Of a stretch of DNA of 64,000 nucleotides, positions 38,512-64,000 are shown in pieces. Position numbers and translations under genes: made by a program. Below the pieces are notes generated by a model. That model did no database searches, had not been told where the DNA came from, and saw only the letters and a list, made by a program, of their open reading frames with translations. Source of the DNA: a bacterium. GTDB taxonomy: Bacteria > Patescibacteriota > JABMPQ01 > JBDRIV01. Position 1 is the stretch's first letter; each line of letters starts with the position of its first letter. Location of the stretch: NCBI GenBank assembly GCA_043815505.1, contig JBDRIV010000002.1, positions 116,784 through 180,783 on the forward strand, in the 5' to 3' direction.

Positions 38512-40737
38512 TTACTTTTTATTTCGAGGGGAAAAGAATTTTTTCTTGTCTCTTTTAGGAAAATCGCGCTTGTTGTTATCACGCTTGTCCTGATTTTTAT
38601 TGAAGGAATCATTTCTCTCGCGCGGAGCACTATTACGCTCTGGTCGAGGCAGCATGGCGCGACGAGAAAGATTAATACGTTTTTGACTATCAATTTCAAT
38701 TACTTTTACAGTTATTTCGTCGCCAACTTGAACTTCATCCTCAACCTTATTAATGCGCTTATGAGCCATTTCCGAAATGTGAACTAAACCTTCAACTTCA
38801 GGCAGAATTTCTACCATAGCACCGAAATCGAAAATGCGAGTAACTTTACCGGTGAAAATTTCACCCGCCTCAATTTCACGAGTTAAGTTTTTAACAATTT
38901 CTACAGCTTTTGGCACATCAGCTTCGTGCGTTCCGGTAATCATCACTAAACCACTGTCTTCAATGTCTATATCAACACCAGTTTCAGCAATAATCTCGTT
39001 GATTTTCTTACCACCTGGTCCAATTACATCACGGATTTTATCGGGATTGATGGTGAGGGAAACAATTCTCGGAGCAAATTCAGATAAATCTTTGCGAGGT
39101 TTAGCAATGGCTTTTTCCATAACTGCTAGAATTTTCATTCGTCCAGCTTTGGCATCAGCAAATGTTTGCTTAACAATTTCGTCAGTTAGTCCTGAAGTTT
39201 TGGTGTCTAATTGAATGGCGGTAATACCATCTTTAGTACCGGCAATTTTGAAATCCATTCCACCTTCGTTGTCTTCTAAATCTTGCAGGTCAGTTAGAAT
39301 TTGGTATTTTCCTTCGGCGTTGGAAACGAGTCCCATCGCAACTCCAGCCACGTGTTTAGGAATATTAACGCCGGCATCCATTAAGGAAAGTGATGATCCA
39401 CAAACTGCAGCCATGGAAGATGAGCCATTTGATCCCATCACTTCTGTTACCAGTCTTATAGTATAAGGGAATTTTTCTTTTGGTGGAATTAAAGATTCCA
39501 AAGCTTTTTCTGCTAGCGAGCCATGACCAATGTCACGCCTGCTAGGTCCACGCATCGGTTTAACATCAGCCACAGAATAAGGAGGAAAATTGTAATGATG
39601 CATGTAGCGTTTTTTGTATTCTTCTTCCATCTCATCAATTATTTGTTCGTCTCCAGGAGAACCGAGTGTAGTGACGGTTAGAACTTGAGTTTCACCGCGC
39701 ATAAAATAACCAGTACCATGTGTGCGAGGTAAAATTCCCACCTCGGCAGTTAAAGGGCGAATCTCATCCATGGCACGACCACCAATTCTTTTTCCTTCAT
39801 TAAGAATCTTGTCACTTATCATTTGTTCAACCATTTCCAGCAAATATTGTTTAGCTAATACTGCTTTACTTTCGTCTTCAGGAAATTTTTCTTTGACAGT
39901 TTTTGCTACCTCATTGTTTAAGTCATAAACAAGATCCTTACGCTTAAGCTTAGTTTCTCCAAACAAAACTTCTTCAATCTTTTTGCCAGCCAGTTCAGAA
40001 ACTATGTTACAAACTTTTTCATCTTTAGCTGGTGCCGGAACATCCATTTTTTCTTTGCCAATTTCTTTTGTAACTTTGTCAAAGAAATCACACATTTCGC
40101 CTAAATATTTTTTAGAGTAATCGAAAGCTTCAAACATTCCTTCTTCCGAAACTTCCTTAGCTGCGGCTTCAACCATAATGACTTTATCCTTTGTTCCAGC
40201 TAAAACTAGGTCCAAATCACCTTCTGTTCTGTCTGAAAAATTGGGACAGAAAATCATAGTTCCGTCTTTTCTTCCTAGTCGCACAGCACCAAGGGGACCA
40301 TTAAATGGGACATCAGAAATCTGACAAGCTAGGGCGGCAGCTAAAAATCCGGGAACATCTGAATCGTTTTCACCATCAAAAGACAGAACAGTAACAATCA
40401 CTTGGAGATCGCGAGTTATATGTTGAGCAAATAAAGGTCTGAGAGCGCGGTCGATCATGCGTGCAGTTAATACTGCTTCGTCTGATGGGCGACCTTCACG
40501 TTTAATGAAACGTGAACCCTTAATTTTTCCGGCGGCGTACAATTTTTCTTCGTAATCAACCATAAGTGGAAAGTAGTTGGCACTTGTTTCATCACGACTC
40601 ATAACAACTGTAGCTAAAACTACTGTGTCACCAAGTCGGCACACAACTGATCCATTTGTTTGATTGGCAATTTTGCCAATTTCAAAAAAGAAGTTTTTAT
40701 CACCAACTTCCAAAGTGTAATTTTTTATTTCGTTCAT
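38512..40737 (-). CDS. pnp: polyribonucleotide nucleotidyltransferase (PNPase) with an Arg/Lys-rich C-terminal tail
   Basis: Two RNase PH domains, KH and S1 domains. After S1, a roughly 55-aa basic tail (RRAMLPRPERNSAPRERND...RDKKKFFSPRNKK). Confidence 0.9.
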   Translation of the reverse strand: MNEIKNYTLEVGDKNFFFEIGKIANQTNGSVVCRLGDTVVLATVVMSRDETSANYFPLMVDYEEKLYAAGKIKGSRFIKREGRPSDEAVLTARMIDRALRPLFAQHITRDLQVIVTVLSFDGENDSDVPGFLAAALACQISDVPFNGPLGAVRLGRKDGTMIFCPNFSDRTEGDLDLVLAGTKDKVIMVEAAAKEVSEEGMFEAFDYSKKYLGEMCDFFDKVTKEIGKEKMDVPAPAKDEKVCNIVSELAGKKIEEVLFGETKLKRKDLVYDLNNEVAKTVKEKFPEDESKAVLAKQYLLEMVEQMISDKILNEGKRIGGRAMDEIRPLTAEVGILPRTHGTGYFMRGETQVLTVTTLGSPGDEQIIDEMEEEYKKRYMHHYNFPPYSVADVKPMRGPSRRDIGHGSLAEKALESLIPPKEKFPYTIRLVTEVMGSNGSSSMAAVCGSSLSLMDAGVNIPKHVAGVAMGLVSNAEGKYQILTDLQDLEDNEGGMDFKIAGTKDGITAIQLDTKTSGLTDEIVKQTFADAKAGRMKILAVMEKAIAKPRKDLSEFAPRIVSLTINPDKIRDVIGPGGKKINEIIAETGVDIDIEDSGLVMITGTHEADVPKAVEIVKNLTREIEAGEIFTGKVTRIFDFGAMVEILPEVEGLVHISEMAHKRINKVEDEVQVGDEITVKVIEIDSQKRINLSRRAMLPRPERNSAPRERNDSFNKNQDKRDNNKRDFPKRDKKKFFSPRNKK

Positions 40738-40912
40738 AAATATGCTCCTTTACATAGGTGCATAGAACGTGAATTTCAGATATGAAGACTCAAACGAAGC
40801 GCGCTTGCTTAGATAAGTCTTTTATTATCTAACTTCCACATTTATATACACCAGCATTTAATAATTATAATGAACTTTTGTGTTTAGAAGTATAAATCAT
40901 TTATGTTAAGTT

Positions 40913-41025
40913 GGCAAGCCCCGCTCCAGTTTTTTAGAACTTAGATACTTATAGTTAAGTAATGCTATTTAGTATCAATATAGTTGTTGAAATTTTTAAG
41001 TTCAATAAAACTGGGGCGGGGCAAG
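40913..41025. repeat. about 113-bp inverted-repeat element, copy A
   Basis: GGCAAGCCCCGCTCCAGTTTT ... 73 nt AT-rich ... AAAACTGGGGCGGGGCAAG. Confidence 0.8.
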
Positions 41026-41107: not shown

Positions 41108-41884
41108 CTAGAATCCTTCAAATATTGATGGAGCGAAAATTATCGTTACACCAATTACTTCTAGACTTGCGGGCTCATCAAGATACTCAAGATCGTATTC
41201 CTCTCTATAAAATGAGAGTCCGAATCCATATATTGGCTTGATTTGTATTTCTATGCGTTTACCAAATCCCGACCAGTTCTCCTTTTTTACTTCTTCCCAG
41301 CTAAGATATCGATCATGACCGGATCTGGCCGTGAAGCCGGTATATGGCCATCCATATTCGACTGATATCGATGATTTCCAGCACTTAAAAACAACAACAT
41401 CAAGTCCAATGTGTGGAATGGCATCAAAGAAGACTGGAGAGTCAAAGTAAAATTGAGTGAAGACGAAAGCTGCGTCAAATGCAGGTCGTGGATCATTATC
41501 CTGTTGTTGATAAGTGTATATTCCACTTCTAAAGTCATCATCGCGCATGGGGATTCTTAAATCTAGCCCGAGAGTTAAGCGAAGCCGCTCTGATCCATAC
41601 GATATGTCACCACCAGCCGTAGTTGCGCCAATGCGATAACTGTTACCGGCAGCTATATCAGTTGTTGTTTCTCCGTCAAAAAGCCAGTAATCGTCAGGGT
41701 GAGCGGGTGTTGTTTGGATTGTATCTCCAAGTTCGACATCGCAGATCATAAGATCAATAGAATATCTTAAGCTACCAGCAAAGAAAAGAAGCTTTTCCTC
41801 TTCTTTCGTTTCTTGACAAAAAGAAATTGCAGATGAGATAGTAAGAAAAATCAAAACTATAAAAAGAACACATTTTTGCCACAT
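41108..41884 (-). CDS. secreted beta-rich protein of unknown function
   Basis: Signal peptide MWQKCVLFIVLIFLTISSAISFC; Tyr/Gly/Asp-rich sequence with alternating hydrophobics; C-terminal ...SIFEGF. Confidence 0.5.
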   Translation of the reverse strand: MWQKCVLFIVLIFLTISSAISFCQETKEEEKLLFFAGSLRYSIDLMICDVELGDTIQTTPAHPDDYWLFDGETTTDIAAGNSYRIGATTAGGDISYGSERLRLTLGLDLRIPMRDDDFRSGIYTYQQQDNDPRPAFDAAFVFTQFYFDSPVFFDAIPHIGLDVVVFKCWKSSISVEYGWPYTGFTARSGHDRYLSWEEVKKENWSGFGKRIEIQIKPIYGFGLSFYREEYDLEYLDEPASLEVIGVTIIFAPSIFEGF

Positions 41885-41967
41885 CTTATTTCCTCCTTAA
41901 ATAAAAGTTGTTAGAGCAAAAAGACATATCAAATTACCAATAATGTTTGTTTTTGTCAAATAAAAAT

Positions 41968-42002
41968 CCCCAACTGCGTACTGCTTGCAGTTGGGGTTTT
42001 CG
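41968..42002. terminator. bidirectional-looking Rho-independent terminator
   Basis: CCCCAACTGC-GTACTGCTT-GCAGTTGGGG followed by TTTT, preceded by an A-run. Confidence 0.55.
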
Positions 42003-42875
42003 TTACGCAGCCGGTTGGCTGTGAACGAGAATTTTGCGGCCGAGTGAGCGCAGCCACTGAGGAATGAATTCACTCAAGCTTTTTCTGGTCAGAGGTTGAT
42101 TTAGTTCTTCCGGCGGTTTCGGCGGATTCACTAAATCCAGCATCTGCAAAAGTTCCCGTTTGATTTCCGGACCTTTCTCCAGATAATCAGCATAAGTTTG
42201 GCAACGGCTGATGATCAGAACCAGTTCGGCTAGAGAGTGCGAAGCAATCTCATTGCCGAAAAAGAGATCATTTTTGTCCACGCCGTCCGGTTCCCAGCGA
42301 ATTACATAGAGAGCTGTCCTCGCCATATCGGCAAAAACCACATCGCTCTCATTGCGAATTCCCTTGGGAAGAACGAAGCGAACAAATTTCCAGTTGGTAG
42401 CTGGTGGTCCGTAGATCTTACCTTCACCCTTGGAATCAACTGCCACACCGCCGAGAATATCTCGCATCATGGGATCATAACCGGGCAAATTAGGGGTTAC
42501 CTTCTCATCGCCGAGATGATAGTGAGGAGGTTGACCATCTTCGTAAAAAGCATGGAATTTTAATCTTTTACCCAGGCGTTGTAAAAGGCAAGCACTAAGC
42601 CAAGTTCCAGAACATACCAAAATCATAATACCTGTTAACAGTAGTCCGAACAGCACGTCCTGGTCAATGATTTTTTGCAAGTAACGGGCATAGTGATTAC
42701 CGCTTGTGATCAAAAAATACCCACTTCCCAAAGGTATTATTACCAACAGGGAAATGAGAAACAGGATAAGTGATCTTATAAGCCCGCTGTGATGCAGGGC
42801 TGGTAGGATCAGTTTGTGAACTTGCGCAACGATCGTGTCGTTGCAGTAAACACAGTTAGTTTTCTGTTGAGTCAT
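42003..42875 (-). CDS. membrane protein of unknown function with an N-terminal CxYC motif
   Basis: Start MTQQKTNCVYCND with a GGAGGA SD. 2-3 TM helices, then a roughly 180-aa soluble domain. GC clearly higher than neighbours. Confidence 0.5.
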   Translation of the reverse strand: MTQQKTNCVYCNDTIVAQVHKLILPALHHSGLIRSLILFLISLLVIIPLGSGYFLITSGNHYARYLQKIIDQDVLFGLLLTGIMILVCSGTWLSACLLQRLGKRLKFHAFYEDGQPPHYHLGDEKVTPNLPGYDPMMRDILGGVAVDSKGEGKIYGPPATNWKFVRFVLPKGIRNESDVVFADMARTALYVIRWEPDGVDKNDLFFGNEIASHSLAELVLIISRCQTYADYLEKGPEIKRELLQMLDLVNPPKPPEELNQPLTRKSLSEFIPQWLRSLGRKILVHSQPAA

Positions 42876-43188
42876 CGTTTTTCCTCCTTCATAAACGTGG
42901 GGGTTTATGATATAGGAAGATTTGTTCAGTAGTACAATATTATTGTACAACTGGGTATATAATCAACTCTGCCCTTATTTATGGGAAGTAGTTGTTATTT
43001 CAGATCATGGATTTTCAAGTGAGCAACTTAGAATATTATACTATATAAGCTGAAATGTCAAGTATTTGGAGCAAGAAAAAGAGCGGAAATCACGAGATTT
43101 CCGCCCCTGCTTAGTCAGTTGTTACTTTCTTGGTTTTTTGAAATTGGTGAATCGAACTTTGCCAGAAACACCTTTTCCTCCAGAATCT

Positions 43189-44499
43189 CTAGCTTTTTTT
43201 TGCGCCCTCCCCACCTTTTTTCAGTGCTTGATTAATGTCTTTAGGGGCCAGAATTTCTTCTTCTTTTTTATCGCAAAGATGAGAACCTCGGTTACCTGAC
43301 CTGATTTGATCCATGAGGTTGCCGGGCCTGGGAGGGCGACCGAGACAATGTTTTGAATCGCGCACGCCATCGATTTCGGACACAATAACAGGCCTTTGGG
43401 TTGGAACCTGCTTAGGTGGATCCAAAACGATATCAGATACAAGGTCTAGATCCTTACTTTCTTTCGGTCCAATCGAAAAGAGATCATCGCCCTCATCTTC
43501 TAATGATTCCAAAGCTGCATCAGCGAATTCCTCGTCCGCATCATTACCTGCTAAAACAACTTTAGCACCACTGAAATCAGGAACATCAGCGTTCACTGGC
43601 GATTCATCATCCACAGTAGCCAAATCGGCTTCGGCGAATTCATCTTCTGCGTCACTCGGAACATCCAGTTCAGCTACCGTCAAGGAATAGGAATTAATGT
43701 ATCTGAGTATTTCACTCATTATTTCCAGCATAGACTCATTGGGACTATTCTCAACTAGTCCATACAGATATTCATGACGAGGCCAATTTATCACCTGAGA
43801 AAAGTTTTCAAACAGTTTCATGATAATTAAAACCAGGGGAGAGAAGAAAGGGTAAATTAAACCAGCTTTTTTGTTATCCAATAAATGGATCGGGATAAGC
43901 CTAACATAGGATTCGAAAGTAGAATTTTCATTGGTTTTAATCTCAATGAATTCAGAATTAATAACCCAAGGGTTATTTAGAATGCCGGCGGTCCCAAACG
44001 ATTTGATGTGTATTGTTTTGTCACGAAGATCGAAAATAAATACTACACCAGCAGTCGCGTTTCGTGGTTTTCCTATTAGCTTTTTGGAAATACCTAGATC
44101 ATTATTTTTGAGAAGATGAAGCCTAGCTTGCAAATAGTCATTCTTATCTAAATAAACCATGAGTGATACATGATCGTTGTTTCTTACTTTCCGCATATAT
44201 TTTCTGTGTAACATTTTTGTGCAGTAAGCCAGGATTAGTGTAATGAAAACTGCGAGAAAAAGAAAGAGATTAAACCTTTCCAGGCTGACCACTTTCGACA
44301 GCAGACTCTGCACAAAGGCCACATTCACTGTGTTCATGAAAATAGCAATCGTAAGAGTACTTGTAAGCAGAAAGAAAACAATCAGAAGAGAAGAAATTAA
44401 AAACCAAAATTCTTTAAGAAAAGACCATCTCCTTACTTTTCCGAAAATAGGGAGAACCTTAGTGGACAAAACTTTCTTTGTGATTTGCTGATCAGTCAT
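43189..44499 (-). CDS. membrane protein of unknown function with a long acidic low-complexity C-terminal region
   Basis: Start MTDQQ with an AAGGAG SD; three TM helices; central globular region; D/E-rich tail (DVPSDAEDEFAEADLATVDDE...). Confidence 0.45.
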   Translation of the reverse strand: MTDQQITKKVLSTKVLPIFGKVRRWSFLKEFWFLISSLLIVFFLLTSTLTIAIFMNTVNVAFVQSLLSKVVSLERFNLFLFLAVFITLILAYCTKMLHRKYMRKVRNNDHVSLMVYLDKNDYLQARLHLLKNNDLGISKKLIGKPRNATAGVVFIFDLRDKTIHIKSFGTAGILNNPWVINSEFIEIKTNENSTFESYVRLIPIHLLDNKKAGLIYPFFSPLVLIIMKLFENFSQVINWPRHEYLYGLVENSPNESMLEIMSEILRYINSYSLTVAELDVPSDAEDEFAEADLATVDDESPVNADVPDFSGAKVVLAGNDADEEFADAALESLEDEGDDLFSIGPKESKDLDLVSDIVLDPPKQVPTQRPVIVSEIDGVRDSKHCLGRPPRPGNLMDQIRSGNRGSHLCDKKEEEILAPKDINQALKKGGEGAKKS

Positions 44500-44672
44500 A
44501 ACAATTCTCCTTATAGTGGTATTTACAAAATTGAATATGTGAAAGGGCAAATTGCCAGAATTAGCAACGGTTTATAATATCATTAATTATAGAATTGGCA
44601 AGTAGCAGTCTTTTTAAAAAAAAGAGAGTCAAAATAATCTAGACTCTCGTATATGTTTTGAAATAAGTGTCA

Positions 44673-45392
44673 TTAAATCCAAGCTCGATCTGAGTGAAAT
44701 CTTTGTCCGATAAAATCTGTCACTTCCTTCGAAGATCTACAGTTTGCGATAATATGTGGAATTTTTTCAGCTGAGAAAATGAATTTCTTACCTGTTCCTT
44801 TCAATTTTATCACAGCTAAAAGATTACTCACAAGACCTGATTCACAAAAACAGATATTGAGATATTCTGGAGGAATATTATTATTGACAAAACCACCAAG
44901 AACCTCCCAAATAGATGAAAAATATATGTAAGAAGAATTATCTGTGTCTATTTTGTGTCCAAGAATACAGCTATTTTTTTTTCTGTTATTGGCGGTACCG
45001 TCAAAAGCAATTATGACAGTCAACTGTTGGTCTGTAAATACAGTGTTGGGGTACTTCACGTCATTATTTTTTGCAGAACAGGGTGGCGTGCTATGAATAT
45101 GTGTGATTCCTCCATTATCGTTTTGTATATGCCCAATTGAATGAGTGAAGTTTCTCAAATAGTATTCACAAGTTAAGCAAAGAATTAAAATCCCGAAAAT
45201 GATAATTCCAGATGTTGTGGATGTGTAGGGTATGTTAGCAGTTTTAGCTAAGTAGAAAAAGAACCCAAGTACAATCACCCAAAGTATTCGCCGAATCAGA
45301 TTGGTACCAGATAAAGGTTTGAATTTTGTGATTCTTGAAATGAAGTTTGTACAACTGGAACAAATCGGATAGTCTTTTCCCGCTTTACGCAT
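44673..45392 (-). CDS. membrane protein of unknown function with an N-terminal CSSC motif
   Basis: MRKAGKDYPICSSCTNF with an AGGAGG SD, two TM helices, C-terminal soluble domain. Architecture parallels 42003..42875. Confidence 0.45.
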   Translation of the reverse strand: MRKAGKDYPICSSCTNFISRITKFKPLSGTNLIRRILWVIVLGFFFYLAKTANIPYTSTTSGIIIFGILILCLTCEYYLRNFTHSIGHIQNDNGGITHIHSTPPCSAKNNDVKYPNTVFTDQQLTVIIAFDGTANNRKKNSCILGHKIDTDNSSYIYFSSIWEVLGGFVNNNIPPEYLNICFCESGLVSNLLAVIKLKGTGKKFIFSAEKIPHIIANCRSSKEVTDFIGQRFHSDRAWI

Positions 45393-45510
45393 TTTGCTTC
45401 CTCCTTAATAAATTTTATAGAGTACGGTTTAATACTGGCAGAGTATCATAGATAAATAATTTGGCAAATAAAAATCCGCTACAAGTTCAGATAGCAGATT
45501 TTCTATTTTT

Positions 45511-46005
45511 TTATTTAAGTAAGAATTTTTTATTCTTTCCTAAATCCAGAAATTCGTCAGCTACATCCATCAATTTGGAAGAAGTTGATTTTTGGAAAGA
45601 GGCAACTTCAACTCGACAACCTTTGGCGTGACGCAAATGATGAACCAAATCAACGTAGTCGCCGTCACCAGAAGCGATTACAACGACATCACATTTTTCT
45701 GCAATCTCGATTGTGTCCATGGCCAGTCCAATATCCCAATCACCTTTTTTATTGCCACCATAAAAGATTTGAATGTCTTTCATTTTAACTTCGTAACCTT
45801 GATTAGAAAGTGCGCCGAAAAATGTTTGTTCTTCTGGTGCTTCGGCTTTGATAACGTAAGCAATTGCTCGAACCAATTTTCTTGGTCCCACAACTTCTTT
45901 TAATATTTCTTTAAAGTTAACTTTGGTTCCAAATAAATGTTTGGCGGAGTAGTACAAGTTTTGCACATCCACAAAAACACCAACGCGTTGGTCTTTAAAT
46001 TTCAT
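45511..46005 (-). CDS. NYN-domain (LabA-like) predicted ribonuclease
   Basis: VGVFVDVQNLYY...VVVIASGDGDYVDLV, typical of the NYN/LabA fold. Confidence 0.6.
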   Translation of the reverse strand: MKFKDQRVGVFVDVQNLYYSAKHLFGTKVNFKEILKEVVGPRKLVRAIAYVIKAEAPEEQTFFGALSNQGYEVKMKDIQIFYGGNKKGDWDIGLAMDTIEIAEKCDVVVIASGDGDYVDLVHHLRHAKGCRVEVASFQKSTSSKLMDVADEFLDLGKNKKFLLK

Positions 46006-46075
46006 ATCAGTAAATTAATAGTTAATTCAATCGGCCATAAGCCATAAGCCATTGGCCATTTGCAGGGCACGAGCC

Positions 46076-46381
46076 CTACACTTGTTTTATTTTTAGTTTT
46101 TTGGTGATGCTCAAATAGCGCTTTTCATCTTCTTTTTTTAGATGATTTAGTAACTTCACACGTTGTGCTACCATGCCGAGTAAACCTCGGCGAGAAGAGT
46201 GATCTTTTTTATGATCTTGCAAATGTTTTGTAAGCTCCTTAATTTCCTCAGTCAAAATTGCGACCTGTACCTCGGGGGATCCAGTGTCTTTGGCGTGAGT
46301 TTTATATTTCTTTATAAGATTTTCTTTCTTCTTTTGGCTAATCATTTTTATGGTTATTAAACATGTACGAGTATGATACAA
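46076..46381 (-). CDS. rpsO: 30S ribosomal protein S15
   Basis: [13 protein letters not shown]...L..H..D..SRRGLL.MV..R..LL.YL. Confidence 0.85.
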
Positions 46382-46462
46382 GAAATTTATACTTTTGGCA
46401 ATAGTTTGTTTATTTGGCAGAAATACGGTATTATTATAATGTCGTACAATAATTAATTACGC

Positions 46463-47404
46463 ATGGCTACGCAAAATTCATTAAAAGGGCTTATCCAAGA
46501 CTTCTTGGATTATTTAGAAGGGGAGAAAAACTGCTCTCCTTTAACAACCAGAAATTATCATTCTTATTTGACCGATTTTGCTAACTCTATGAAAGTTTCT
46601 CAGCCAGCCGAGATAACAGATAGTAAGTTGCGAGATTATCGAGTTGTTTTAAATAGAAGAAAAAATTCTAAGGGAGATTATTTAAAACATTCTACCAAGA
46701 ATTATTATTTAATTGCTCTTCGTTCCTTTCTGAAGTATTTAGCCAAGCGCGATATAAAAAGTCTAATGCCTGAAAAAATTGAGTTGGCCAAAGTGGCTGG
46801 ACGTGAGATAGATTTTTTGGAGCCAGAAGAACTCGCTCGTTTGCTTGATGCACCAGATGCAGGAACAATGCGTGGATTGCGTGACAAAGCAATTTTAGAA
46901 CTGCTGTTTTCCTCTGGTTTGCGTGTCAGTGAATTATGTTCACTTGATACTAAGAAAATAAATTTGAAAAAAGATGAATTTTCTATTCGCGGAAAAGGAG
47001 ATAAGTTGCGGGTCGTTTTTCTTTCTAACACCGCTAAGTACTGGTTGAAAAAATATAATGATGCCAGACAAGATGGTTTATCTCCACTATTCATAAGCTA
47101 TCCAAAAGGGAAAGCTAGTCTCGATGTTTCCGATCCAGAAAAAAGAAGATTAACCCCAAGGAGTATTCAAAGGTTAGTTCATAAATATGCTCTTATTGCT
47201 GGAATTACAACCAAGGTTACACCCCATGTTTTGCGTCATAGTTATGCCACAGATTTACTAATGGGTGGTGCTGATATTCGTTCGGTGCAGGCCATGCTTG
47301 GGCACGCTTCTATTACCACTACGCAAATGTATACGCACATTACTGACAAAAGATTACGCGAAGTTTATAAGAAGTTTCACGGGAAAACTAGAAGAGGCGA
47401 GTAG
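46463..47404 (+). CDS. tyrosine site-specific recombinase, XerC/XerD family
   Basis: N-terminal core-binding domain. Catalytic R (LRDKAILELLFSSGLRVSEL), the HVLRHSYATDLL box and LGHASITTTQMYTH with the Tyr nucleophile. Confidence 0.8.
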   Translation: MATQNSLKGLIQDFLDYLEGEKNCSPLTTRNYHSYLTDFANSMKVSQPAEITDSKLRDYRVVLNRRKNSKGDYLKHSTKNYYLIALRSFLKYLAKRDIKSLMPEKIELAKVAGREIDFLEPEELARLLDAPDAGTMRGLRDKAILELLFSSGLRVSELCSLDTKKINLKKDEFSIRGKGDKLRVVFLSNTAKYWLKKYNDARQDGLSPLFISYPKGKASLDVSDPEKRRLTPRSIQRLVHKYALIAGITTKVTPHVLRHSYATDLLMGGADIRSVQAMLGHASITTTQMYTHITDKRLREVYKKFHGKTRRGE

Positions 47405-47539
47405 TCTTTGTTCAGAGTTTGTCGAGGGGTTGTTAATTAGATGCTATAATGTTATAGTAACGCGGAAATTATTTGGCATATGGCATATAGCAAATGGCAA
47501 ATAGTACATAATCGTTTACAATTCAAACGAGGAGAGCAT

Positions 47540-47568
47540 CCAGCCCCAGTTTGAAAAACTGGAGCTGG
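47540..47568. repeat. hairpin-only mini copy of the inverted-repeat element
   Basis: CCAGCCCCAGTTT-GAAAA-ACTGGAGCTGG. Confidence 0.6.
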
Positions 47569-47570
47569 AG

Positions 47571-47760
47571 AGCACGGATTCAAATTGAGAAGAGGAATAA
47601 ATACAGTCGAAATTAGGAGCGCAGGTGAACGTAGTGAACCGAGCACGCGTTTAAATTGAGAGTAGGAATAGTACAGTCGAAATTAGGAACGGAAGGCGAA
47701 GCCTGAGTACGGATTTCGACTGAGAGGAGGAGCAATACGGAGGTCGGTGAAGTTCAATTA
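47571..47760. repeat. about 70-bp imperfect tandem repeat, 2.6 units
   Basis: Units AAATTGAGAAGAGGAATAAATACAGTCGAAATTAGGAGCG... and AAATTGAGAGTAGGAATAGTACAGTCGAAATTAGGAACGG..., each bounded by GAGYACGGATT. Confidence 0.8.
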
Positions 47761-47770
47761 ATTGAACTTC
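47749..47770. promoter_or_regulatory. perfect 22-bp palindrome GAAGTTCAATTAATTGAACTTC, 25 nt upstream of tRNA-Arg
   Basis: Read directly; fully self-complementary. Confidence 0.8.
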
Positions 47771-47795
47771 GTAGACCGCAGTATTGGTCCGACGA

Positions 47796-47946: not shown

Positions 47947-48411
47947 ATGAATGTAAAATGCAAGATTTGCTCAAAAGAGTTTTATGTAAAACCATCCCAT
48001 AAAAAAATGGGTTGGGGAAAGTTCTGTTCATTAAAATGTGCATATATTGCAAGAAGAAAAGGTAAGGAATTAGATTGCGCAGAATGTGGAAAGAGAATAT
48101 ACCGATCCCCGAAGCAACTTAAGAAGTCTAAGTCACAATTATATTTTTGTACAAAATCATGTCATCAGAAGTATAAAAATAAGTTTATGTCTGGCGAGAA
48201 TCATCCGCAGTGGAAGTACGGGAAATATTACTATCTTCCGCTAATGAAGAGAAAGAAGAAAATGATATGCATGAAATGTAATGAAAAAAATAAAAAAGTT
48301 TTGGTTGTTCATCATATAGATAGAAATAGAAAAAATAATGAATTGGAAAATCTGATTTGGTTATGTAGGAATTGTCATTATCTAGTTCATCAGTATAAAG
48401 AAAAGTTTTGA
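47947..48411 (+). CDS. HNH endonuclease with N-terminal Cys-rich zinc ribbons
   Basis: Four CxxC pairs in the N-terminal 100 aa; C-terminal HHIDRNRKNN...LCRNCH HNH motif. Confidence 0.65.
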   Translation: MNVKCKICSKEFYVKPSHKKMGWGKFCSLKCAYIARRKGKELDCAECGKRIYRSPKQLKKSKSQLYFCTKSCHQKYKNKFMSGENHPQWKYGKYYYLPLMKRKKKMICMKCNEKNKKVLVVHHIDRNRKNNELENLIWLCRNCHYLVHQYKEKF

Positions 48412-49519: not shown

Positions 49520-52009
49520 ATGAAAAGCTGTAATGCCATTCTGTGTCTCGTGGTGGTTTTTCTGCTGTCTGTTATGACAGCGGATGCCGCAGTTTTGCGG
49601 GTCCCTCAAAGCTATCCGACCATCCAGGTTGCTGTTGATGCCTCCGTGGATGGCGACACGGTGCTGGTGGACGAAGGCACCTACACTGGTGTTGGTAATC
49701 GTGATATCTATATCGAAAGGAAAAAGATAACTGTAAAGTCGGTGTCTGGACCCACTAAATGTATTATCAACTGCGAGAATAAAGGTCGTGCCTTCATGAT
49801 CTATCTCGAAGGTGATGACTCTCCAACTATCAATGGGTTTACCATTGTAAATGCATCCAAGTTTGTTGGTGGTTTCTATGATGATGGCGGTGGAATCTAT
49901 TGCCACTATGTCAATCCAACCATCAAAAACTGCATTATTATGAATTGCAACGGTGGTAATGGCGGTGGAATTTATCTCGATAATTCCAGTCCAGTCATTC
50001 AAGATTGTGTGATCGCGAACTGTGAAGCTACAAGATTTGGCGCTGGAATCTCTGGTCACAGCGAATGCTCTCCAAAAATTTTGGATTGTATCATTGACAA
50101 TAACAAAACGAACGATGGTGGCGCTGGAATTGCTATTGGTTATAATGGAAAGCCAGAAATAACCAATTGTATTATTACCAACAATCGTTCTAAAGATTCA
50201 TATGGTGGTGGTATCTCAATTTATCAAGATGCTGTTGGAAAAATTCAAAAATGTACAATCATTGGGAATTACTCTTACTCTGGAGGTGGAGGAGTTTACG
50301 TTGGTGGTTGTGGTATTGGTGAAAACCAATTAATCGAGAATTCCATTGTATGGGGAAATAGTGCAGTATCTCAAGGTGACAACATCTTTACCTATAATGA
50401 AGAAGACCTCATCGTCAAATTCTCTTGCATCGAAGGTGGTTGGGCTGGTCAGGGTAATATTAGTCAGAATCCGCAGTTTCGAGATGGTCCTCCCGACAAT
50501 GCATGGAAAAACACTCACTGGCCGTCAGGTTTGAATTCTGACGCCTACTATCTGAAACAAATCGCTGCTGGTGATGCAGTAGATAGTCCCTGTGTAGATG
50601 CCGGTAATCCCGGCACAACTGTTACAGGAACTACGCGCAACGATCAGGTTATCGATTCTGGCACGCCCGATATGGGTGCTCATTACAGAGAATTTTTCAT
50701 CGGATACAATCCGACTAACATGATTTTCACAGCTTCAGAAGGGGAAATCCCCGCGCCACAGTATGTGGAAATTTGGCCGGACGGTGATGGTTCAACTGGT
50801 ATGAACTGGACAGTTAGCAAATATGTTCCATGGATTTCTCTTGATCCGCTTTCTGGAACTTCAACAGGAGAAGTTGATCAGGTGGCAGTGAATATCGACA
50901 CTAGCAACATGAGTAGAGGAACCTACTCAGGCAAGATTTATGTTAATGCCAATGATGCTTTTTGGCCTACAGAAAGTATCCTGATTACAGTTAGCATCGG
51001 TGAAACGGTCACGGGCCCAAAGCTCGTTGTGGGGCCTGGCCCCGCTTACGGTAATGATTCTGTTGTTCGAGTTTTTCCTCCGCAGCAGAATGCAACCTAT
51101 GAATTGGAGTTTGCCGCTTACGGCGTGCCCCATTATGGGGTCAACGTTACGGTAGGGAATTTCGGTGGTGGCGACATGATCGTTACCGGCGCTGGCCCTG
51201 GGGCTGTATTTGGTCCTCATGTTAGAGGATTCTTGCCCAACGGTATTCAACTACCTGAGTTTTCCTTTCTCGCTTACGGAACCAACAAATGGGGTGTAAA
51301 CGTCGCTTGTGGTAATCTGGATGATGACGAAGCAGATGAGATTATTACTGGCGCTGGCCCAGGAGAAATTTTTGGCCCGCACGTGCGGGCGTGGAACTAT
51401 AATGGTTCTACTATTTCTTCCATAGCGAAGGTAAGCTATTTCGCCTATAAAACCCCTAAATGGGGAGTCAACGTAGCGGCTGGTGATGTGGATGGTGATG
51501 GTTACGACGAAATCATTACCGGCGCAGGACCAGGTGCGGTATACGGCCCTCACGTCCGGGGTTGGGATGTGGACTCTGATTCCGCGGTAGCCATACCAGG
51601 AATCAACTTCCTTGCTTATGGAACCAATAAGTTTGGTGTTAATGTGACAGTCGGAGATGTCGACGGCGACGGCTACGACGAAATCATTACCGGCGCTGGT
51701 CCAGGATCTGTGTTTGGAGCTCATGTGCGTGGTTGGAACTACGACGGCGCGCAAATCACAGAACTTCCTAACTTTTCCTTCTTTGCTTGGTCGCCTAACG
51801 ATATACGTTATGGCGCCAAGGTTTATGCCGGTGCTGATTTGGACGGTGACGGCAAAAATGAACTGATCGTTGGCGGTGGTCCTGATCCGAATATGAATAC
51901 CGAGATCAAAGCCTACCGCTATAATGGAAGTATCGTTGAATGGTTCTCCATCTACGAAACTTTCGTCGGATATACGAAGGGAACCAGCATCGCTGCTGGT
52001 AACTTCTAA
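49520..52009 (+). CDS. secreted right-handed beta-helix (pectate-lyase-like) protein with C-terminal FG-GAP/VCBS-like beta-propeller repeats
   Basis: Signal peptide. PbH1-like repeats (NCIIMNCNGGNGGGIY, CVIANCEATRFGAGIS). At least five repeats of GVNV..GD.DGDGYDEIITGAGPG..FGPHVRGW with DxDxDG Ca-binding-like loops. Strong AAGGAG SD. GC about 10 points above surroundings. Confidence 0.75.
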   Translation: MKSCNAILCLVVVFLLSVMTADAAVLRVPQSYPTIQVAVDASVDGDTVLVDEGTYTGVGNRDIYIERKKITVKSVSGPTKCIINCENKGRAFMIYLEGDDSPTINGFTIVNASKFVGGFYDDGGGIYCHYVNPTIKNCIIMNCNGGNGGGIYLDNSSPVIQDCVIANCEATRFGAGISGHSECSPKILDCIIDNNKTNDGGAGIAIGYNGKPEITNCIITNNRSKDSYGGGISIYQDAVGKIQKCTIIGNYSYSGGGGVYVGGCGIGENQLIENSIVWGNSAVSQGDNIFTYNEEDLIVKFSCIEGGWAGQGNISQNPQFRDGPPDNAWKNTHWPSGLNSDAYYLKQIAAGDAVDSPCVDAGNPGTTVTGTTRNDQVIDSGTPDMGAHYREFFIGYNPTNMIFTASEGEIPAPQYVEIWPDGDGSTGMNWTVSKYVPWISLDPLSGTSTGEVDQVAVNIDTSNMSRGTYSGKIYVNANDAFWPTESILITVSIGETVTGPKLVVGPGPAYGNDSVVRVFPPQQNATYELEFAAYGVPHYGVNVTVGNFGGGDMIVTGAGPGAVFGPHVRGFLPNGIQLPEFSFLAYGTNKWGVNVACGNLDDDEADEIITGAGPGEIFGPHVRAWNYNGSTISSIAKVSYFAYKTPKWGVNVAAGDVDGDGYDEIITGAGPGAVYGPHVRGWDVDSDSAVAIPGINFLAYGTNKFGVNVTVGDVDGDGYDEIITGAGPGSVFGAHVRGWNYDGAQITELPNFSFFAWSPNDIRYGAKVYAGADLDGDGKNELIVGGGPDPNMNTEIKAYRYNGSIVEWFSIYETFVGYTKGTSIAAGNF

Positions 52010-55460: not shown

Positions 55461-55566
55461 GGAGCCCCGCCCCAGTTTTATAGAACTCAAATGCTTTAAG
55501 TTAAAAATTACTTTTTAGCATTATTGAATTAGATTATATTGAGTTTTGAAAAACTGGGGCGGGGCG
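55461..55566. repeat. inverted-repeat element, copy B, abutting tRNA-Arg
   Basis: GGAGCCCCGCCCCAGTTTT ... 69 nt AT-rich ... AAAACTGGGGCGGGGCG. Confidence 0.8.
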
Positions 55567-55570
55567 ACGA

Positions 55571-55643
55571 GCGCTCGTAGCTCAGCGGATAGAGCATCAG
55601 ATTGCGGATCTGAAGGTCGCAGGTTCGAATCCCGCCGAGCGCA
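55571..55643 (+). tRNA. tRNA-Arg (anticodon read as GCG; ACG is more usual in bacteria)
   Basis: GCGCTCG/CGAGCGC acceptor, D-arm GCTC-AGCGGATA-GAGC, anticodon arm TCAGA-TTGCGGA-TCTGA, T-loop TTCGAAT. Confidence 0.7.
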
Positions 55644-60066: not shown

Positions 60067-60143
60067 GCTTGTATAGCTCAGTTTGGAAGAGCGCCTGTTT
60101 CTTATGCAGGAAGTCGTGGGTTCGAGTCCCACCTTCGGCACCA
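60067..60143 (+). tRNA. tRNA-Lys(CTT)-like gene with a non-complementary acceptor stem (possible pseudogene or att-site chimera)
   Basis: Canonical D, anticodon (CCTGT-TTCTTAT-GCAGG) and T arms (GTGGG-TTCGAGT-CCCAC) plus ACCA. But the 5' strand GCTTGTA does not pair with the 3' strand CTTCGGC: only 2 Watson-Crick pairs. Confidence 0.45.
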
Positions 60144-60339: not shown

Positions 60340-60416
60340 GGCGTGTTAGCTCAATTTGGTAGAGCAACCGACTCTTAATCGAGAGGTCGCTGGTTCGACT
60401 CCGGCACGGGGAACCA
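60340..60416 (+). tRNA. second tRNA-Lys(CTT)-like gene with mismatched acceptor and anticodon stems (possible pseudogene)
   Basis: GGCGTGT-TA-GCTC-AATTTGGTA-GAGC; anticodon loop CTCTTAA; T-arm GCTGG-TTCGACT-CCGGC; 3' ACGGGGA-A-CCA not complementary to the 5' strand. Confidence 0.4.
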
Positions 60417-60426
60417 AATCTTAGGG

Positions 60427-60499
60427 AGAACTATCGTCTAGATGGTCTAGGACTCCCGGCTTTGATCGGGGAACCCTGGTTCAAATCCAGGTAGTTCTC
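60427..60499 (+). tRNA. tRNA-Gln (anticodon TTG)
   Basis: AGAACTA/TAGTTCT acceptor, flanked by a further GGG/CCC extension; anticodon loop CTTTGAT; T-arm CCTGG-TTCAAAT-CCAGG. Confidence 0.7.
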
Positions 60500-60620
60500 C
60501 CTTCTCCCAGCGGTTTTCCGATTACCCCCCTCGGACCAACCGCTTTTTTTTATCTCAAATTTCTATATAATAAATAAACCATGTGCCATAAGCCACATGC
60601 TATAAGCCCTAAGCAAACTA

Positions 60621-63715: not shown

Positions 63716-63824
63716 CCCTTGCCCCGCCCAAGTTACTTTAATTGATATAATCGCTTGTTTAAGCATAAATAGTTCTTCTATGGTTTTAATCTATCAATAA
63801 AATTAAACTGGAGCGGGGCTTGCC
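63716..63824. repeat. inverted-repeat element, copy C (opposite orientation to copy A)
   Basis: CTTGCCCCGCCCAAGTT ... 70 nt AT-rich ... AAACTGGAGCGGGGCTTGCC. Confidence 0.8.
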
Positions 63825-64000
63825 ATAGTTGTTTTTTATTGTTAGACTTAAAAAAATTTATTATAAATTTTTTTGCCTGCCTGTTGGCAGACAGGCCTAA
63901 TTTCGGGGGTTACAACCGAAAACGGCTCTTTTAAAAAAGAAATTATGCGCATGAGAGGATGCGCTTTAATTTTGCCTAAATATCAAGCGGAAAAGGAGAA

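What the first reader, a model, noticed from the sequence alone, without database searches (positions are those of the whole stretch)
40913..41025. Family of about 110-bp inverted-repeat elements: GC-rich 19-bp termini closing an AT-rich core, three full copies plus one hairpin-only copy
Copies lie at 40913-41025 (between pnp and the inserted block), 55461-55566 (ending 4 nt before tRNA-Arg) and 63716-63824 (inverted orientation). They share the termini GGCAAGCCCCGCYCCAGTTTT and AAAACTGGRGCGGGGC, with cores of about 70 nt that are AT-rich and related (a shared TAGAAC segment). A 29-bp hairpin-only version sits at 47540-47568. All copies are intergenic and sit at boundaries of accessory or tRNA loci. 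They could be miniature inverted-repeat transposable elements (MITEs), a structured small-RNA family, or recombination or landing sites.
Basis: seen in the sequence. Interest (0 to 1): 0.7.

Follow-up and report, generated by a model that had tools for sequence, protein, structure and literature searches.

The report
Mobile GC-stemmed hairpin elements of Patescibacteria
The three ~100-bp inverted-repeat elements are real, gene-less copies of a hairpin-shaped insertion element that is widespread in Patescibacteria (CPR bacteria), sits between genes and at helix tips of RNase P RNA and rRNA genes, and has ~305-bp relatives that encode a small GIY-YIG nuclease.

Summary
The window holds three ~100-nt hairpin elements (40918-41022, 55464-55565, 63721-63819) and one stem-only copy (47539-47569). 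They share the arm CCCGCYCCAGTT(T), which gives 8 hits against 0.3 expected by chance.

The window comes from a Patescibacteria (CPR) MAG. Exact-arm scans found 86 further loci, almost all CPR; one of them (L039) is a false positive. There were no hits in viral contigs.

- **Structure:** the closing helix (positions -1 to +16) shows compensatory changes, with a covariation score of 0.228 against 0.108 in shuffles.
- **Mobility:** orthologous ribosomal-protein operon spacers are 1-9 nt in some genomes and hold 217-236-nt elements in others.
- **Location:** about 14% of copies form peripheral hairpins inside stable RNA genes: RNase P RNA (P3, P9, a P19-like site), 16S h44, 23S helix 25, and pseudo-tRNA D-loops.
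- **Coding relatives:** ~305-nt elements with the same type of arm, including the exact arm of the window's stem-only copy, encode an 85-95 aa UPF0213/SLX1-like GIY-YIG nuclease. These occupy the same niches, notably RNase P P12.

Best reading: the window copies are ORF-less, MITE-like members of a GIY-YIG-associated hairpin element family. Mobilisation by the nuclease is inferred, not shown. Copies 1 and 3 also supply an outward -35 box for predicted promoters, including that of pnp. I found no published description of the family.

The parts
40918..41022 (.). Copy 1. ORF-less hairpin element of 105 nt, with arms GCCCCGCTCCAGTTTT / AAAACTGGGGCGGGGC and an AT-rich core. It lies between the terminator of ORF 41108-41884(-) and pnp (38512-40737, -).
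   Evidence: RNA fold: -50 kcal/mol on the + strand (z -9.1) and -38.7 on the - strand. Flanked by the direct repeat CAAG at 40915-40918 and 41022-41025.
55464..55565 (.). Copy 2. ORF-less hairpin element of 102 nt with perfect arms GCCCCGCCCCAGTTTT / AAAACTGGGGCGGGGC. It ends 5 nt before tRNA-Arg(GCG).
   Evidence: Fold -50.8 (+ strand) and -45.4 (- strand) kcal/mol, z about -10. The core is homologous to that of copy 1. No promoter-like site lies between the element and the tRNA, so the element is probably part of the tRNA precursor (inference).
63721..63819 (.). Copy 3. Inverted, more diverged ORF-less element of 99 nt. The left arm is CCCCGCCCAAGTTA (2 mismatches) and the right arm is AAACTGGAGCGGGGC.
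   Evidence: Flanked by the direct repeat CTTG at 63718-63721 and 63819-63822.
47539..47569 (.). Stem-only copy: TCCAGCCCCAGTTT-GAA-AAACTGGAGCTGGA. It lies 135 nt after the tyrosine-recombinase ORF (46463-47404) and 227 nt before tRNA-Arg(TCT).
   Evidence: The arms are identical to those flanking GIY-YIG ORFs in L053, L089, L092 and L097.
40889..40917 (-). Predicted sigma-70-type promoter for pnp: -35 TTGCCA, 17-nt spacer, -10 TATACT. The -35 box abuts the end of copy 1.
   Evidence: 10 of 12 consensus matches. The same arrangement is seen at 8 of 79 element ends against a 1% background.
63820..63848 (+). Predicted promoter abutting copy 3: -35 TTGCCA, 17-nt spacer, TG-extended -10 TAGACT.
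55571..55643 (+). tRNA-Arg(GCG), immediately downstream of copy 2. It is context for the element, not part of it.

Best explanation
The window elements are ORF-less, non-autonomous members of a hairpin-bounded insertion-element family that is spread across Patescibacteria (CPR).

**What an element is.** Each is a self-contained stem-loop. A GC-rich closing stem of about 17 bp (core YCCCGCYCCAGTT) encloses a loop that varies freely between lineages.

**Where they insert.** Elements insert into DNA between genes and at the tips of peripheral helices of stable RNA genes. The strong closing stem lets the insert fold as an independent hairpin, so the host transcript or RNA gene keeps working.

**Longer relatives.** Relatives of ~305 nt have the same type of arm and fill the loop with an 85-95 aa catalytic-domain-only GIY-YIG nuclease of the UPF0213/SLX1 type.

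**Inferred mechanism.** This structure-specific-type nuclease, acting on the cruciform or hairpin formed by the arms, may mobilise both the coding elements and, in trans, the ORF-less ones. If so, the window copies relate to it as MITEs relate to their parent element. The 29-31-nt hairpin at 47539-47569 would be a stem-only remnant.

**Side effects in this window.** Copies 1 and 3 place an outward -35 hexamer 17 nt from a -10 box; for copy 1 this would be the pnp promoter. Copy 2 is probably co-transcribed as the 5' leader of tRNA-Arg.

**Shown:** family membership, selected pairing, insertion polymorphism, occupancy of RNA genes, and shared arms with the GIY-YIG elements.

**Inferred:** mobilisation by the nuclease, any processing of the hairpin in RNA, and promoter activity.
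For: 1. **Repeat family.** The arm motif is far above chance in the window. Exact two-arm scans return 36 genome loci and 50 metagenome loci, almost all CPR. The window's pnp has only Patescibacteria relatives.
2. **Selected helix.** Among 69 distinct elements, positions -1 and 13-16 show compensatory changes. Covariation is 0.228 against 0.108 in shuffles (0 of 500 reach it), and slid controls give 0.13 or less.
3. **Insertion.** In syntenic ribosomal-protein operons, five different spacers are 1-9 nt in some genomes and 217-236 nt with an element in others.
4. **Within-genome amplification.** Copies 1 and 2 share core sequence. At least 12 copies, including a tandem pair, occur in the MAG CAZVCF01.
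5. **RNA-gene niches.** Elements sit in RNase P RNA at P3 (L041; Rfam E 9e-30), at a P19-like site (L002), and at P9 and after P5 (L057, L082). They also sit in 16S h44 (L027, L051), 23S helix 25 (L058) and pseudo-tRNA D-loops.
6. **Coding relatives.** Elements of 305-308 nt with arms CC[CA][GT]C[CT]CCA[GC]TTTT enclose a GIY-YIG ORF (Pfam E 1e-12 to 1e-17). They occupy P12, P3 and P15-17 of RNase P RNA and also 23S. All 8 homologues looked up lie inside or next to stable RNA genes: four inside RNase P RNA genes, two inside 23S, and two (L088, L098) inferred rRNA only from a neighbouring LAGLIDADG gene.
7. **Nuclease type.** The nearest solved structures are UPF0213 proteins and SLX1, a structure-specific endonuclease.
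8. **Flanking repeats.** Direct repeats of 3-5 bp flank 9 of 70 elements, including window copies 1 and 3.
Against: - No GIY-YIG gene lies in the 64-kb window. The rest of the 567-kb genome could not be read.
- ORF-less cores share no detectable sequence with the ORF-bearing elements beyond the arms. The link therefore rests on arm identity, niche and taxon range.
- There is no general target-site duplication.
- Arm position 6 is unconstrained and often mismatched: C.A in 18 of 69 and U.G in 21 of 69. The model does not explain this.
- In RNase P RNA the arms align to the native GC-rich P3 and P12 stems. Some similarity of the outer arm could therefore reflect native stems rather than common descent.
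- No GIY-YIG protein is known to act as a transposase (my own knowledge).
- Several non-CPR MAG labels (Gammaproteobacteria, Methylomirabilis, Acidimicrobiia, Ca. Arcanobacter) are unresolved. At least one is doubtful: its 16S is only 74.6% identical to E. coli.
Confidence: 0.6

Rival explanations
1. Host-serving structured RNA module. The hairpins would be cis-acting RNA elements, such as RNase III processing sites, transcript stabilisers or insulators. In this view they are maintained for the host's benefit and spread by duplication rather than by a dedicated mobility enzyme.
For: - The stem shows compensatory changes.
- All operon-borne copies share one orientation relative to transcription.
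- In RNA genes the sense strand folds better in 9 of 12 cases.
- The 23S helix-25 site is a classical site for RNase III-excised intervening sequences (PMC11270868).
Against: - Copies occur at many unrelated sites, and orthologous spacers of 1-9 nt lack them.
- Loops have no conserved sequence between lineages.
- In co-directional intergenic copies the antisense strand folds better in 14 of 19 cases.
- The same 12-16-nt arm sequence recurs across phylum-level CPR lineages. Structure alone does not require that.
- No U-tract follows the stem, so the elements are not intrinsic terminators.
Confidence: 0.15
2. Classical MITE. The arms would be terminal inverted repeats recognised by a conventional (for example DDE) transposase encoded elsewhere in the genome. 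The GIY-YIG ORFs would be unrelated passengers in similar hairpins.
For: - The elements have TIR-like conserved termini, small size and no ORF.
- They are multicopy, with related cores within a genome.
- Direct repeats of 3-5 bp flank 9 of 70 copies, including window copies 1 and 3.
- An outward -35 box sits at element ends, as in many IS elements and MITEs.
Against: - No long element with these arms encloses a transposase in about 0.6 Mb of flanking sequence. The only long arm pairs enclose GIY-YIG ORFs.
- No shared transposase-like neighbour was found.
- No TSD of fixed length exists.
- Position -1 covaries rather than being conserved. That fits a pairing requirement better than protein recognition of each end.
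Confidence: 0.15
3. Convergence or borrowed stems. The ORF-less hairpins and the GIY-YIG insertions would be unrelated. Both would simply sit in, or copy, native GC-rich stems such as RNase P P3/P12, so the shared arm would not mark one element family.
For: In Rfam alignments the arms align to the native C-rich/G-rich P3 and P12 stems. There is no core homology between ORF-less and ORF-bearing elements.
Against: - The shared part includes the non-GC extension CCAGTTTT/AAAACTGG and the same Y/R polymorphism.
- It recurs in intergenic DNA, 16S, 23S and four different RNase P helices.
- The window stem-only copy matches the GIY-YIG arms exactly over 13 nt.
Confidence: 0.08
4. Chance similarity of three loci.
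For: None.
Against: There are 8 arm hits against 0.3 expected, 86 further loci with exact arms at a constant spacing, and fold z-scores down to -10.7.
Confidence: 0.01

Closest known systems
Insertion sequences of CPR rRNA genes (Brown et al. 2015 as cited in, and Tsurumaki et al. 2024, PMC11270868)
   Same: - Same taxon and the same rRNA niches.
- The 2024 paper reports GIY-YIG ORFs in rRNA insertions that are neither group I nor group II introns.
- It also reports many uncharacterised ORF-less insertions under 200 bp, mostly at the tops or bases of stem-loops.
   Different: - That work covers rRNA genes only.
- It does not report a conserved arm sequence, a link between the short and the GIY-YIG insertions, copies in RNase P RNA, or intergenic copies.
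- It treats the GIY-YIG ORFs as sparse, recent acquisitions.
RNase III-excised intervening sequences (IVS) of bacterial 23S rRNA (helix 25 and helix 45; Salmonella, Leptospira, Coxiella and others)
   Same: - Both are stem-loop insertions of ~100 nt to several hundred nt at helix tips.
- Both have a sporadic distribution and sometimes carry a small ORF.
- The element in L058 sits at helix 25.
   Different: - IVSs are restricted to rRNA and have no family-wide conserved stem sequence.
- Here the same element also populates RNase P RNA, 16S, pseudo-tRNAs and intergenic DNA.
- Excision by RNase III was not tested.
Bacterial MITE-like palindromic repeats (Correia/NEMIS of Neisseria, Rickettsia palindromic elements, ERIC, REPINs)
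   Same: - All are ~100-150-bp inverted-repeat elements that are multicopy and intergenic.
- They can fold as RNA hairpins and can create promoters.
- Rickettsia palindromic elements also invade RNA and protein genes.
   Different: - Those families are limited to a genus or species, whereas this arm is shared across phylum-level CPR lineages.
- There is no fixed TSD, no DDE transposase and no RAYT.
- The coding relatives carry a GIY-YIG nuclease.
- The arms are not themselves REP-like palindromes.
GIY-YIG homing endonuclease genes (I-TevI type, phage Seg proteins) and UPF0213/SLX1-type GIY-YIG nucleases
   Same: The associated ORF has a GIY-YIG catalytic domain. Its closest solved structures are UPF0213 proteins and SLX1.
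   Different: - The protein is the catalytic domain alone (85-95 aa), with no DNA-binding domain.
- It is not in an intron and not confined to one homing site.
- It is enclosed by a conserved inverted repeat.
GC-rich palindromic mobile clusters of AT-rich organelle genomes (yeast mitochondrial GC clusters, double-hairpin elements)
   Same: Both are GC-rich hairpins scattered in an AT-rich reduced genome, including within rRNA genes. This comparison rests on my own knowledge and was not tested here.
   Different: The hosts and sequences are unrelated. This is an analogy only.

Membership tests
MITE (miniature inverted-repeat transposable element) | Short, non-coding and multicopy, with conserved terminal inverted repeats | tested here: met
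   The window holds three copies plus a remnant. There are 69-72 distinct copies elsewhere, 95-109 nt long and with no ORF. The arms are conserved.
MITE (miniature inverted-repeat transposable element) | Target-site duplication of fixed length flanking each copy | tested here: inconclusive
   There is no excess of repeats at most boundaries. However, 9 of 70 copies have 3-5-bp direct repeats of varying length, including window copies 1 (CAAG) and 3 (CTTG).
MITE (miniature inverted-repeat transposable element) | Presence/absence polymorphism at orthologous sites (mobility) | tested here: met
   Five ribosomal-protein operon spacers are 1-9 nt when empty and 217-236 nt when filled. This was shown for the family, not for the window copies themselves.
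MITE (miniature inverted-repeat transposable element) | An autonomous partner with the same termini that encodes a transposase | tested here: not met
   The only longer elements with the same arms encode a GIY-YIG nuclease, not a known transposase.
rRNA intervening sequence (IVS) | Stem-loop inserted at a helix tip of an rRNA gene | tested here: met
   Met for family members L027 and L051 (16S h44) and L058 (23S helix 25). Not met for the three window copies, which are intergenic.
rRNA intervening sequence (IVS) | Excised from the transcript by RNase III, leaving fragmented rRNA | not testable with these tools
   This needs RNA-seq or northern data.
Homing endonuclease element (GIY-YIG) | Encodes the endonuclease | tested here: not met
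   The window copies have no ORF, and the window has no GIY-YIG gene. Relatives of ~305 nt do encode one.
Homing endonuclease element (GIY-YIG) | Confined to one cognate target site in a conserved gene | tested here: not met
   Elements occur at P3, P9, P12, P15-17 and a P19-like site of RNase P RNA. They also occur in 16S h6 and h44, in 23S, and at many intergenic sites.
REPIN / REP with RAYT transposase | Two inverted REP units, each itself an imperfect palindrome, with a RAYT gene in the genome | tested here: not met
   The arm GCCCCGCYCCAGTTT is not self-complementary. The all-vs-all neighbour comparison found no shared neighbour gene except ribosomal-protein operon genes and one glycosyltransferase cluster. 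No direct search for RAYT was made.
Any curated Rfam RNA family | Match at or above the gathering score | tested here: not met
   Only tRNAs reach the gathering score in the window. Sub-threshold hits on copy 1 are generic long-hairpin (miRNA precursor) models.
Intrinsic (rho-independent) terminator | GC-rich stem followed directly by a U-tract | tested here: not met
   No T-run follows either strand of any window copy, and the terminator scan does not call them.
Group I / group II intron | Ribozyme core structure of several hundred nt | tested here: not met
   The elements are ~100-nt simple hairpins with no Rfam intron match.

The most novel reading that the evidence does not exclude
This could be a previously unrecognised kind of prokaryotic mobile element. 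In it, a catalytic-domain-only, SLX1/UPF0213-like GIY-YIG nuclease would be enclosed by a conserved palindrome and would move by structure-specific cleavage of the cruciform or hairpin its own arms form.

Under this reading the nuclease has spawned ORF-less hairpin 'MITEs' across the Patescibacteria. The family has remodelled essential RNA genes: it forms P3, P9, P12 and P15-17 of RNase P RNA, 16S h44 and 23S helix 25. It also seeds promoters in intergenic DNA.
Probability: 0.3. Interest if true: 0.85.

Novelty: new variant of a known kind. Interest (0 to 1): 0.66.

Why it matters
- **Reduced genomes.** Patescibacteria have small, tightly packed genomes and are thought to carry few transposable elements. 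A lineage-wide hairpin element that slips between translationally coupled genes and into essential RNA genes would change that picture.
- **RNase P RNA detection.** The family offers a concrete cause for a reported problem: CPR RNase P RNAs fall below Rfam cut-offs and show "large extensions of helices" (PMC8172020; compare, at 76 and 96 bits against a cut-off of 100).
- **Link between two reported insertion classes.** It connects the sparse GIY-YIG ORFs and the many short uncharacterised insertions reported in CPR rRNA genes (PMC11270868) into one family defined by a shared stem.
- **A testable function.** It proposes a role for the widespread UPF0213-type GIY-YIG proteins, whose function is unknown.
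- **Practical use.** The arm motif is a simple marker for masking these insertions when annotating CPR RNA genes and predicting promoters.

Tried and rejected
- **Rfam.** Neither the gathering nor the E-value threshold gave a family.
- **Viral contigs.** No hits, so a phage origin is not supported.
- **tRNA intron or split-tRNA reading of L008, L020 and L026.** The tRNA-like hosts lack a T-arm and sit upstream of intact tRNAs with the same anticodon, so they are pseudo-tRNAs. No bulge-helix-bulge motif is present.
- **integron attC, Xer/dif site, DNA uptake sequence, Tn3-type IR.** All were rejected on motif order, spacing or copy density, from reading the sequences plus my own knowledge.
- **Strand asymmetry at arm position 6 as a strand marker.** In CCCGC-type arms all 8 informative RNA-gene copies have C.A in the sense RNA. 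However, CCAGC/CCCTC-type arms show U.G in the sense strand (L089, L094), and operon copies show both. No rule emerges.
- **Shared neighbour genes.** Only ribosomal-protein operon synteny and glycosyltransferases were found, and no transposase.
- **Empty site near pnp.** The closest relative (70% PNPase identity, L037) is too diverged in its intergenic DNA to compare.
- **Exact-protein look-up of the ORF next to copy 2.** Not on record.
- **Residual homology between ORF-less cores and GIY-YIG elements.** None was found.
- **L039.** It is a false positive of the pattern: two inverted tRNA 3' ends reading ...CCCGCTCCA.

Full report
**Observation.** The arm CCCCGCYCCAGTTT, allowing up to 2 mismatches, occurs 8 times in the window as four inverted pairs. 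Shuffles give 0.30, and none of 100 reaches 8. A relaxed search for paired arms finds nothing else convincing.

Each full copy folds into a single long hairpin:

| Copy | + strand (kcal/mol) | - strand (kcal/mol) | z-score |
|---|---|---|---|
| 1 | -50.0 | -38.7 | -9.1 (+), -7.7 (-) |
| 2 | -50.8 | -45.4 | -9.7 (+), -10.7 (-) |
| 3 | -29.5 | -31.4 | -3.4 (+), -4.0 (-) |

Copies 1 and 2 have alignable AT-rich cores. Copy 3 is inverted and more diverged. The stem-only copy at 47539-47569 has arms CCAGCYCCAGTTT, one base different from the arms of the full copies.

**Source organism and distribution.** The window's PNPase has a 100% match on a 567-kb MAG contig, and its other relatives are Patescibacteria at up to 70% identity. 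A scan of one genome per species with CCCGCYCCAGTT-N55-85-AACTGGRGCGGG returned 36 loci. A metagenome scan returned 50 more, many from groundwater. Viral contigs returned none.

Nearly all loci come from CPR lineages: Saccharibacteria, Paceibacterota, Moran-, Kaiser-, Uhr-, Portnoy- and Falkowbacteria. A few MAGs carry other labels. For one "Gammaproteobacteria" MAG, the 16S is only 74.6% identical to E. coli, so that label is doubtful.

Between lineages the loops are unrelated in sequence, but the length stays within 94-109 nt for most copies. The search pattern capped length at 109 nt. One hit, L039, is an artefact made of two inverted tRNA 3' ends.

**A helix is selected.** I took 69 distinct elements and trimmed each to its outer 36 nt on both sides so that pair partners stay in register (alignment A4). 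The 12 positions fixed by the search pattern say nothing. The free positions do:

- Position -1 is C-G in 42 elements and U-A in 21.
- Positions 13-16 carry three to six pair types each.
- Overall covariation is 0.228 against 0.108 in shuffles (0 of 500 reach it), and 0.13 or less when partners are slid.
- Pairing stops at -2 on the outside.
- Arm position 6 is not constrained: C-G 26, U.G 21, C.A 18, U-A 4.

**The elements insert.** Five loci share a syntenic ribosomal-protein operon. Five different spacers are 1-9 nt in some genomes and 217-236 nt in others. The long versions carry the element, always in the same orientation relative to transcription.

In that subfamily the unit is a three-hairpin composite that fills the spacer from the stop codon to the start codon. 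Within genomes the cores are related, and tandem copies occur (L030).

There is no general target-site duplication. However, 9 of 70 copies have 3-5-bp flanking direct repeats, which the shuffle control suggests is more than chance. They include window copy 1 (CAAG) and copy 3 (CTTG).

**Stable RNA genes are a major niche.**

| Host gene | Site | Locus |
|---|---|---|
| RNase P RNA | P19-like position | L002 |
| RNase P RNA | P9 | L057 |
| RNase P RNA | after P5 | L082 |
| RNase P RNA | P3; arms abut GAGGAAAGUCC (Rfam E 9e-30) | L041 |
| RNase P RNA | P3, by motif | L053, L055/L072 |
| 16S rRNA | helix 44 apex | L027, L051 |
| 23S rRNA | maps to about E. coli positions 486-599, helix 25, a classical IVS site | L058 |
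| pseudo-tRNA-Arg | D-loop, upstream of an intact tRNA | L008, L020, L026 |

About 14% of the sampled copies lie in RNA genes. Part of this enrichment may be ascertainment bias: the scan required perfect arms, and arms inside functional RNAs are probably better preserved.

**Coding relatives.** Looking for longer arm pairs uncovered 305-308-nt elements whose loop is an 85-95 aa ORF with a GIY-YIG catalytic domain (Pfam E 1e-12 to 1e-17).

- **Family size.** A profile search finds about 1,900 such proteins, named at most "GIY-YIG nuclease family protein" in CPR MAGs.
- **Location.** All eight homologues looked up lie inside or next to stable RNA genes: four inside RNase P RNA genes, two inside 23S, and two (L088, L098) inferred rRNA only from a neighbouring LAGLIDADG gene.
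- **Arms.** Seven of nine elements have arms of the type CC[CA][GT]C[CT]CCA[GC]TTTT, with the same Y/R polymorphism.
- **Match to the window.** The arms TCCAGCCCCAGTTTT (L053, L092, L097) and CCCAGCTCCAGTTTT (L089) are exactly those of the window's stem-only copy.
- **Mixed genes.** One RNase P RNA gene (L089) holds three elements: GIY-YIG elements at P3 and P12, and an ORF-less ~100-nt element at the P19-like site. L041 has an ORF-less element as P3 and a GIY-YIG element as P12.
- **Protein type.** The protein's nearest solved relatives are UPF0213 proteins and SLX1, a structure-specific nuclease. It has no DNA-binding domain.

**Limits of the link.** The window has no GIY-YIG gene, and I could not read the rest of the genome. 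ORF-less cores show no residual similarity to the coding elements beyond the arms. In RNase P RNA the arms align to the native GC-rich P3 and P12 stems, so the outer arm may owe something to those stems. The CCAGTTTT extension and its recurrence in unrelated contexts argue against pure convergence.

**Local effects in the window.** At 8 of 79 element ends, an outward -35-like hexamer starts 1-3 nt from the arm with a -10 box 16-18 nt further on. The background rate is 1%.

- Copy 1 provides TTGCCA-17-TATACT in front of pnp.
- Copy 3 provides TTGCCA-17-TG-extended TAGACT.
- In five of the nine TSD-like cases the repeat overlaps the TTG of such a hexamer.
- Copy 2 has no promoter between it and tRNA-Arg(GCG), so it is probably part of the tRNA precursor. 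That last point is an inference.

**Comparison with the literature.**

- Tsurumaki et al. 2024 (PMC11270868) report GIY-YIG ORFs in CPR rRNA insertions that are not introns, and many short uncharacterised ORF-less insertions. They report no shared stem, no RNase P occupancy and no intergenic copies.
- Lui et al. 2021 (PMC8172020) report CPR RNase P RNAs that fall below model cut-offs and show large helix extensions, without giving a cause.
- Searches for MITEs in Patescibacteria, or for GIY-YIG together with RNase P RNA, found nothing relevant. The library is limited to open-access papers.

**Verdict.** The three copies are ORF-less members of a CPR-wide, GC-stemmed hairpin insertion-element family. 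The family is MITE-like in behaviour, IVS-like when inside rRNA, and associated through its arms and niches with a small GIY-YIG nuclease.

Family membership, selected pairing, insertion polymorphism and RNA-gene occupancy are shown. Mobilisation by the nuclease, RNA-level processing and promoter activity are inferred.

Noticed in passing
window 55571-55643; also L020 1770-1846: The tRNA-Arg has anticodon GCG rather than the usual bacterial ACG. The same anticodon appears in a Saccharibacteria MAG.
   Followed up: no
window 60067-60140 and 60345-60407: Rfam calls two tRNA-like genes (47.8 and 36.8 bits) that ARAGORN does not report. They lie next to tRNA-Gln at 60427-60501 and could be unusual or degenerate tRNAs.
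   Followed up: no
window 47405-47795: A 390-nt gene-less stretch lies between the tyrosine recombinase and tRNA-Arg(TCT). It contains a TATAAT-like box near 47445, short TGGCA(A/T)A repeats at 47474-47504, the stem-only hairpin, and two ~52-nt direct repeats (about 47570-47621 and 47641-47692). It may be an unannotated RNA.
   Followed up: partly
window 47947-48411: A 154-aa ORF with TRASH zinc-ribbon and HNH endonuclease motifs is wedged between tRNA-Arg(TCT) and tRNA-His. It may be a free-standing homing-type nuclease.
   Followed up: no
window 41108-47404: This is the block between copy 1 and the stem-only copy. It holds four ORFs with no Pfam match, an NYN-domain protein and a tyrosine recombinase. 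GC rises to 0.39-0.45 at 41-44 kb, against ~0.35 for the window. It may be an integrated element bounded by two hairpin copies.
   Followed up: no
window 63875-63896; L034 about 100-130: The GC-rich hairpin GCCTGCCTGTTGGCAGACAGGC lies just downstream of copy 3. A similar hairpin, GCCTGCCTGCCGGCAGGCAGGC, sits in the flanking module of the composite element in L034. The exact pattern occurs once in the window and not in the other loci.
   Followed up: partly
L008 2227-2440; L020 1846-2060; L026 5628-5800: Pseudo-tRNA fragments (acceptor, D and anticodon arms, but no T-arm) carry the element in the D-loop. In L008 and L020 a pseudo-tRNA-Arg sits directly upstream of an intact tRNA-Arg with the same anticodon; L026 is a shorter tRNA-like 5' fragment upstream of tRNA-Ala. 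This suggests gene duplication linked to the insertion.
   Followed up: partly
L089 2018-3075: A single RNase P RNA gene carries three hairpin elements: GIY-YIG at P3, GIY-YIG at P12, and an ORF-less element before the P4 3' strand. Together they roughly triple the gene's length and push it below the Rfam cut-off (76.5 bits against 100).
   Followed up: yes
L005 5650-5654: The empty spacer between two ribosomal-protein genes reads TTGGC before the ATG. Those are the same five bases that end the composite element in filled spacers (...ATTGGC ATG). This could be a footprint, the target sequence, or coincidence.
   Followed up: no
L027 3668-5242: The 16S rRNA of a MAG labelled 'uncultured Gammaproteobacteria' is only 74.6% identical to E. 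coli 16S over 80% of its length. The label is doubtful, and the same may hold for the copy-rich MAG CAZVCF01.
   Followed up: partly
window 51001-52000: GC reaches 0.51 within the 829-aa beta-helix / FG-GAP protein gene (49520-52009), well above the window mean.
   Followed up: no
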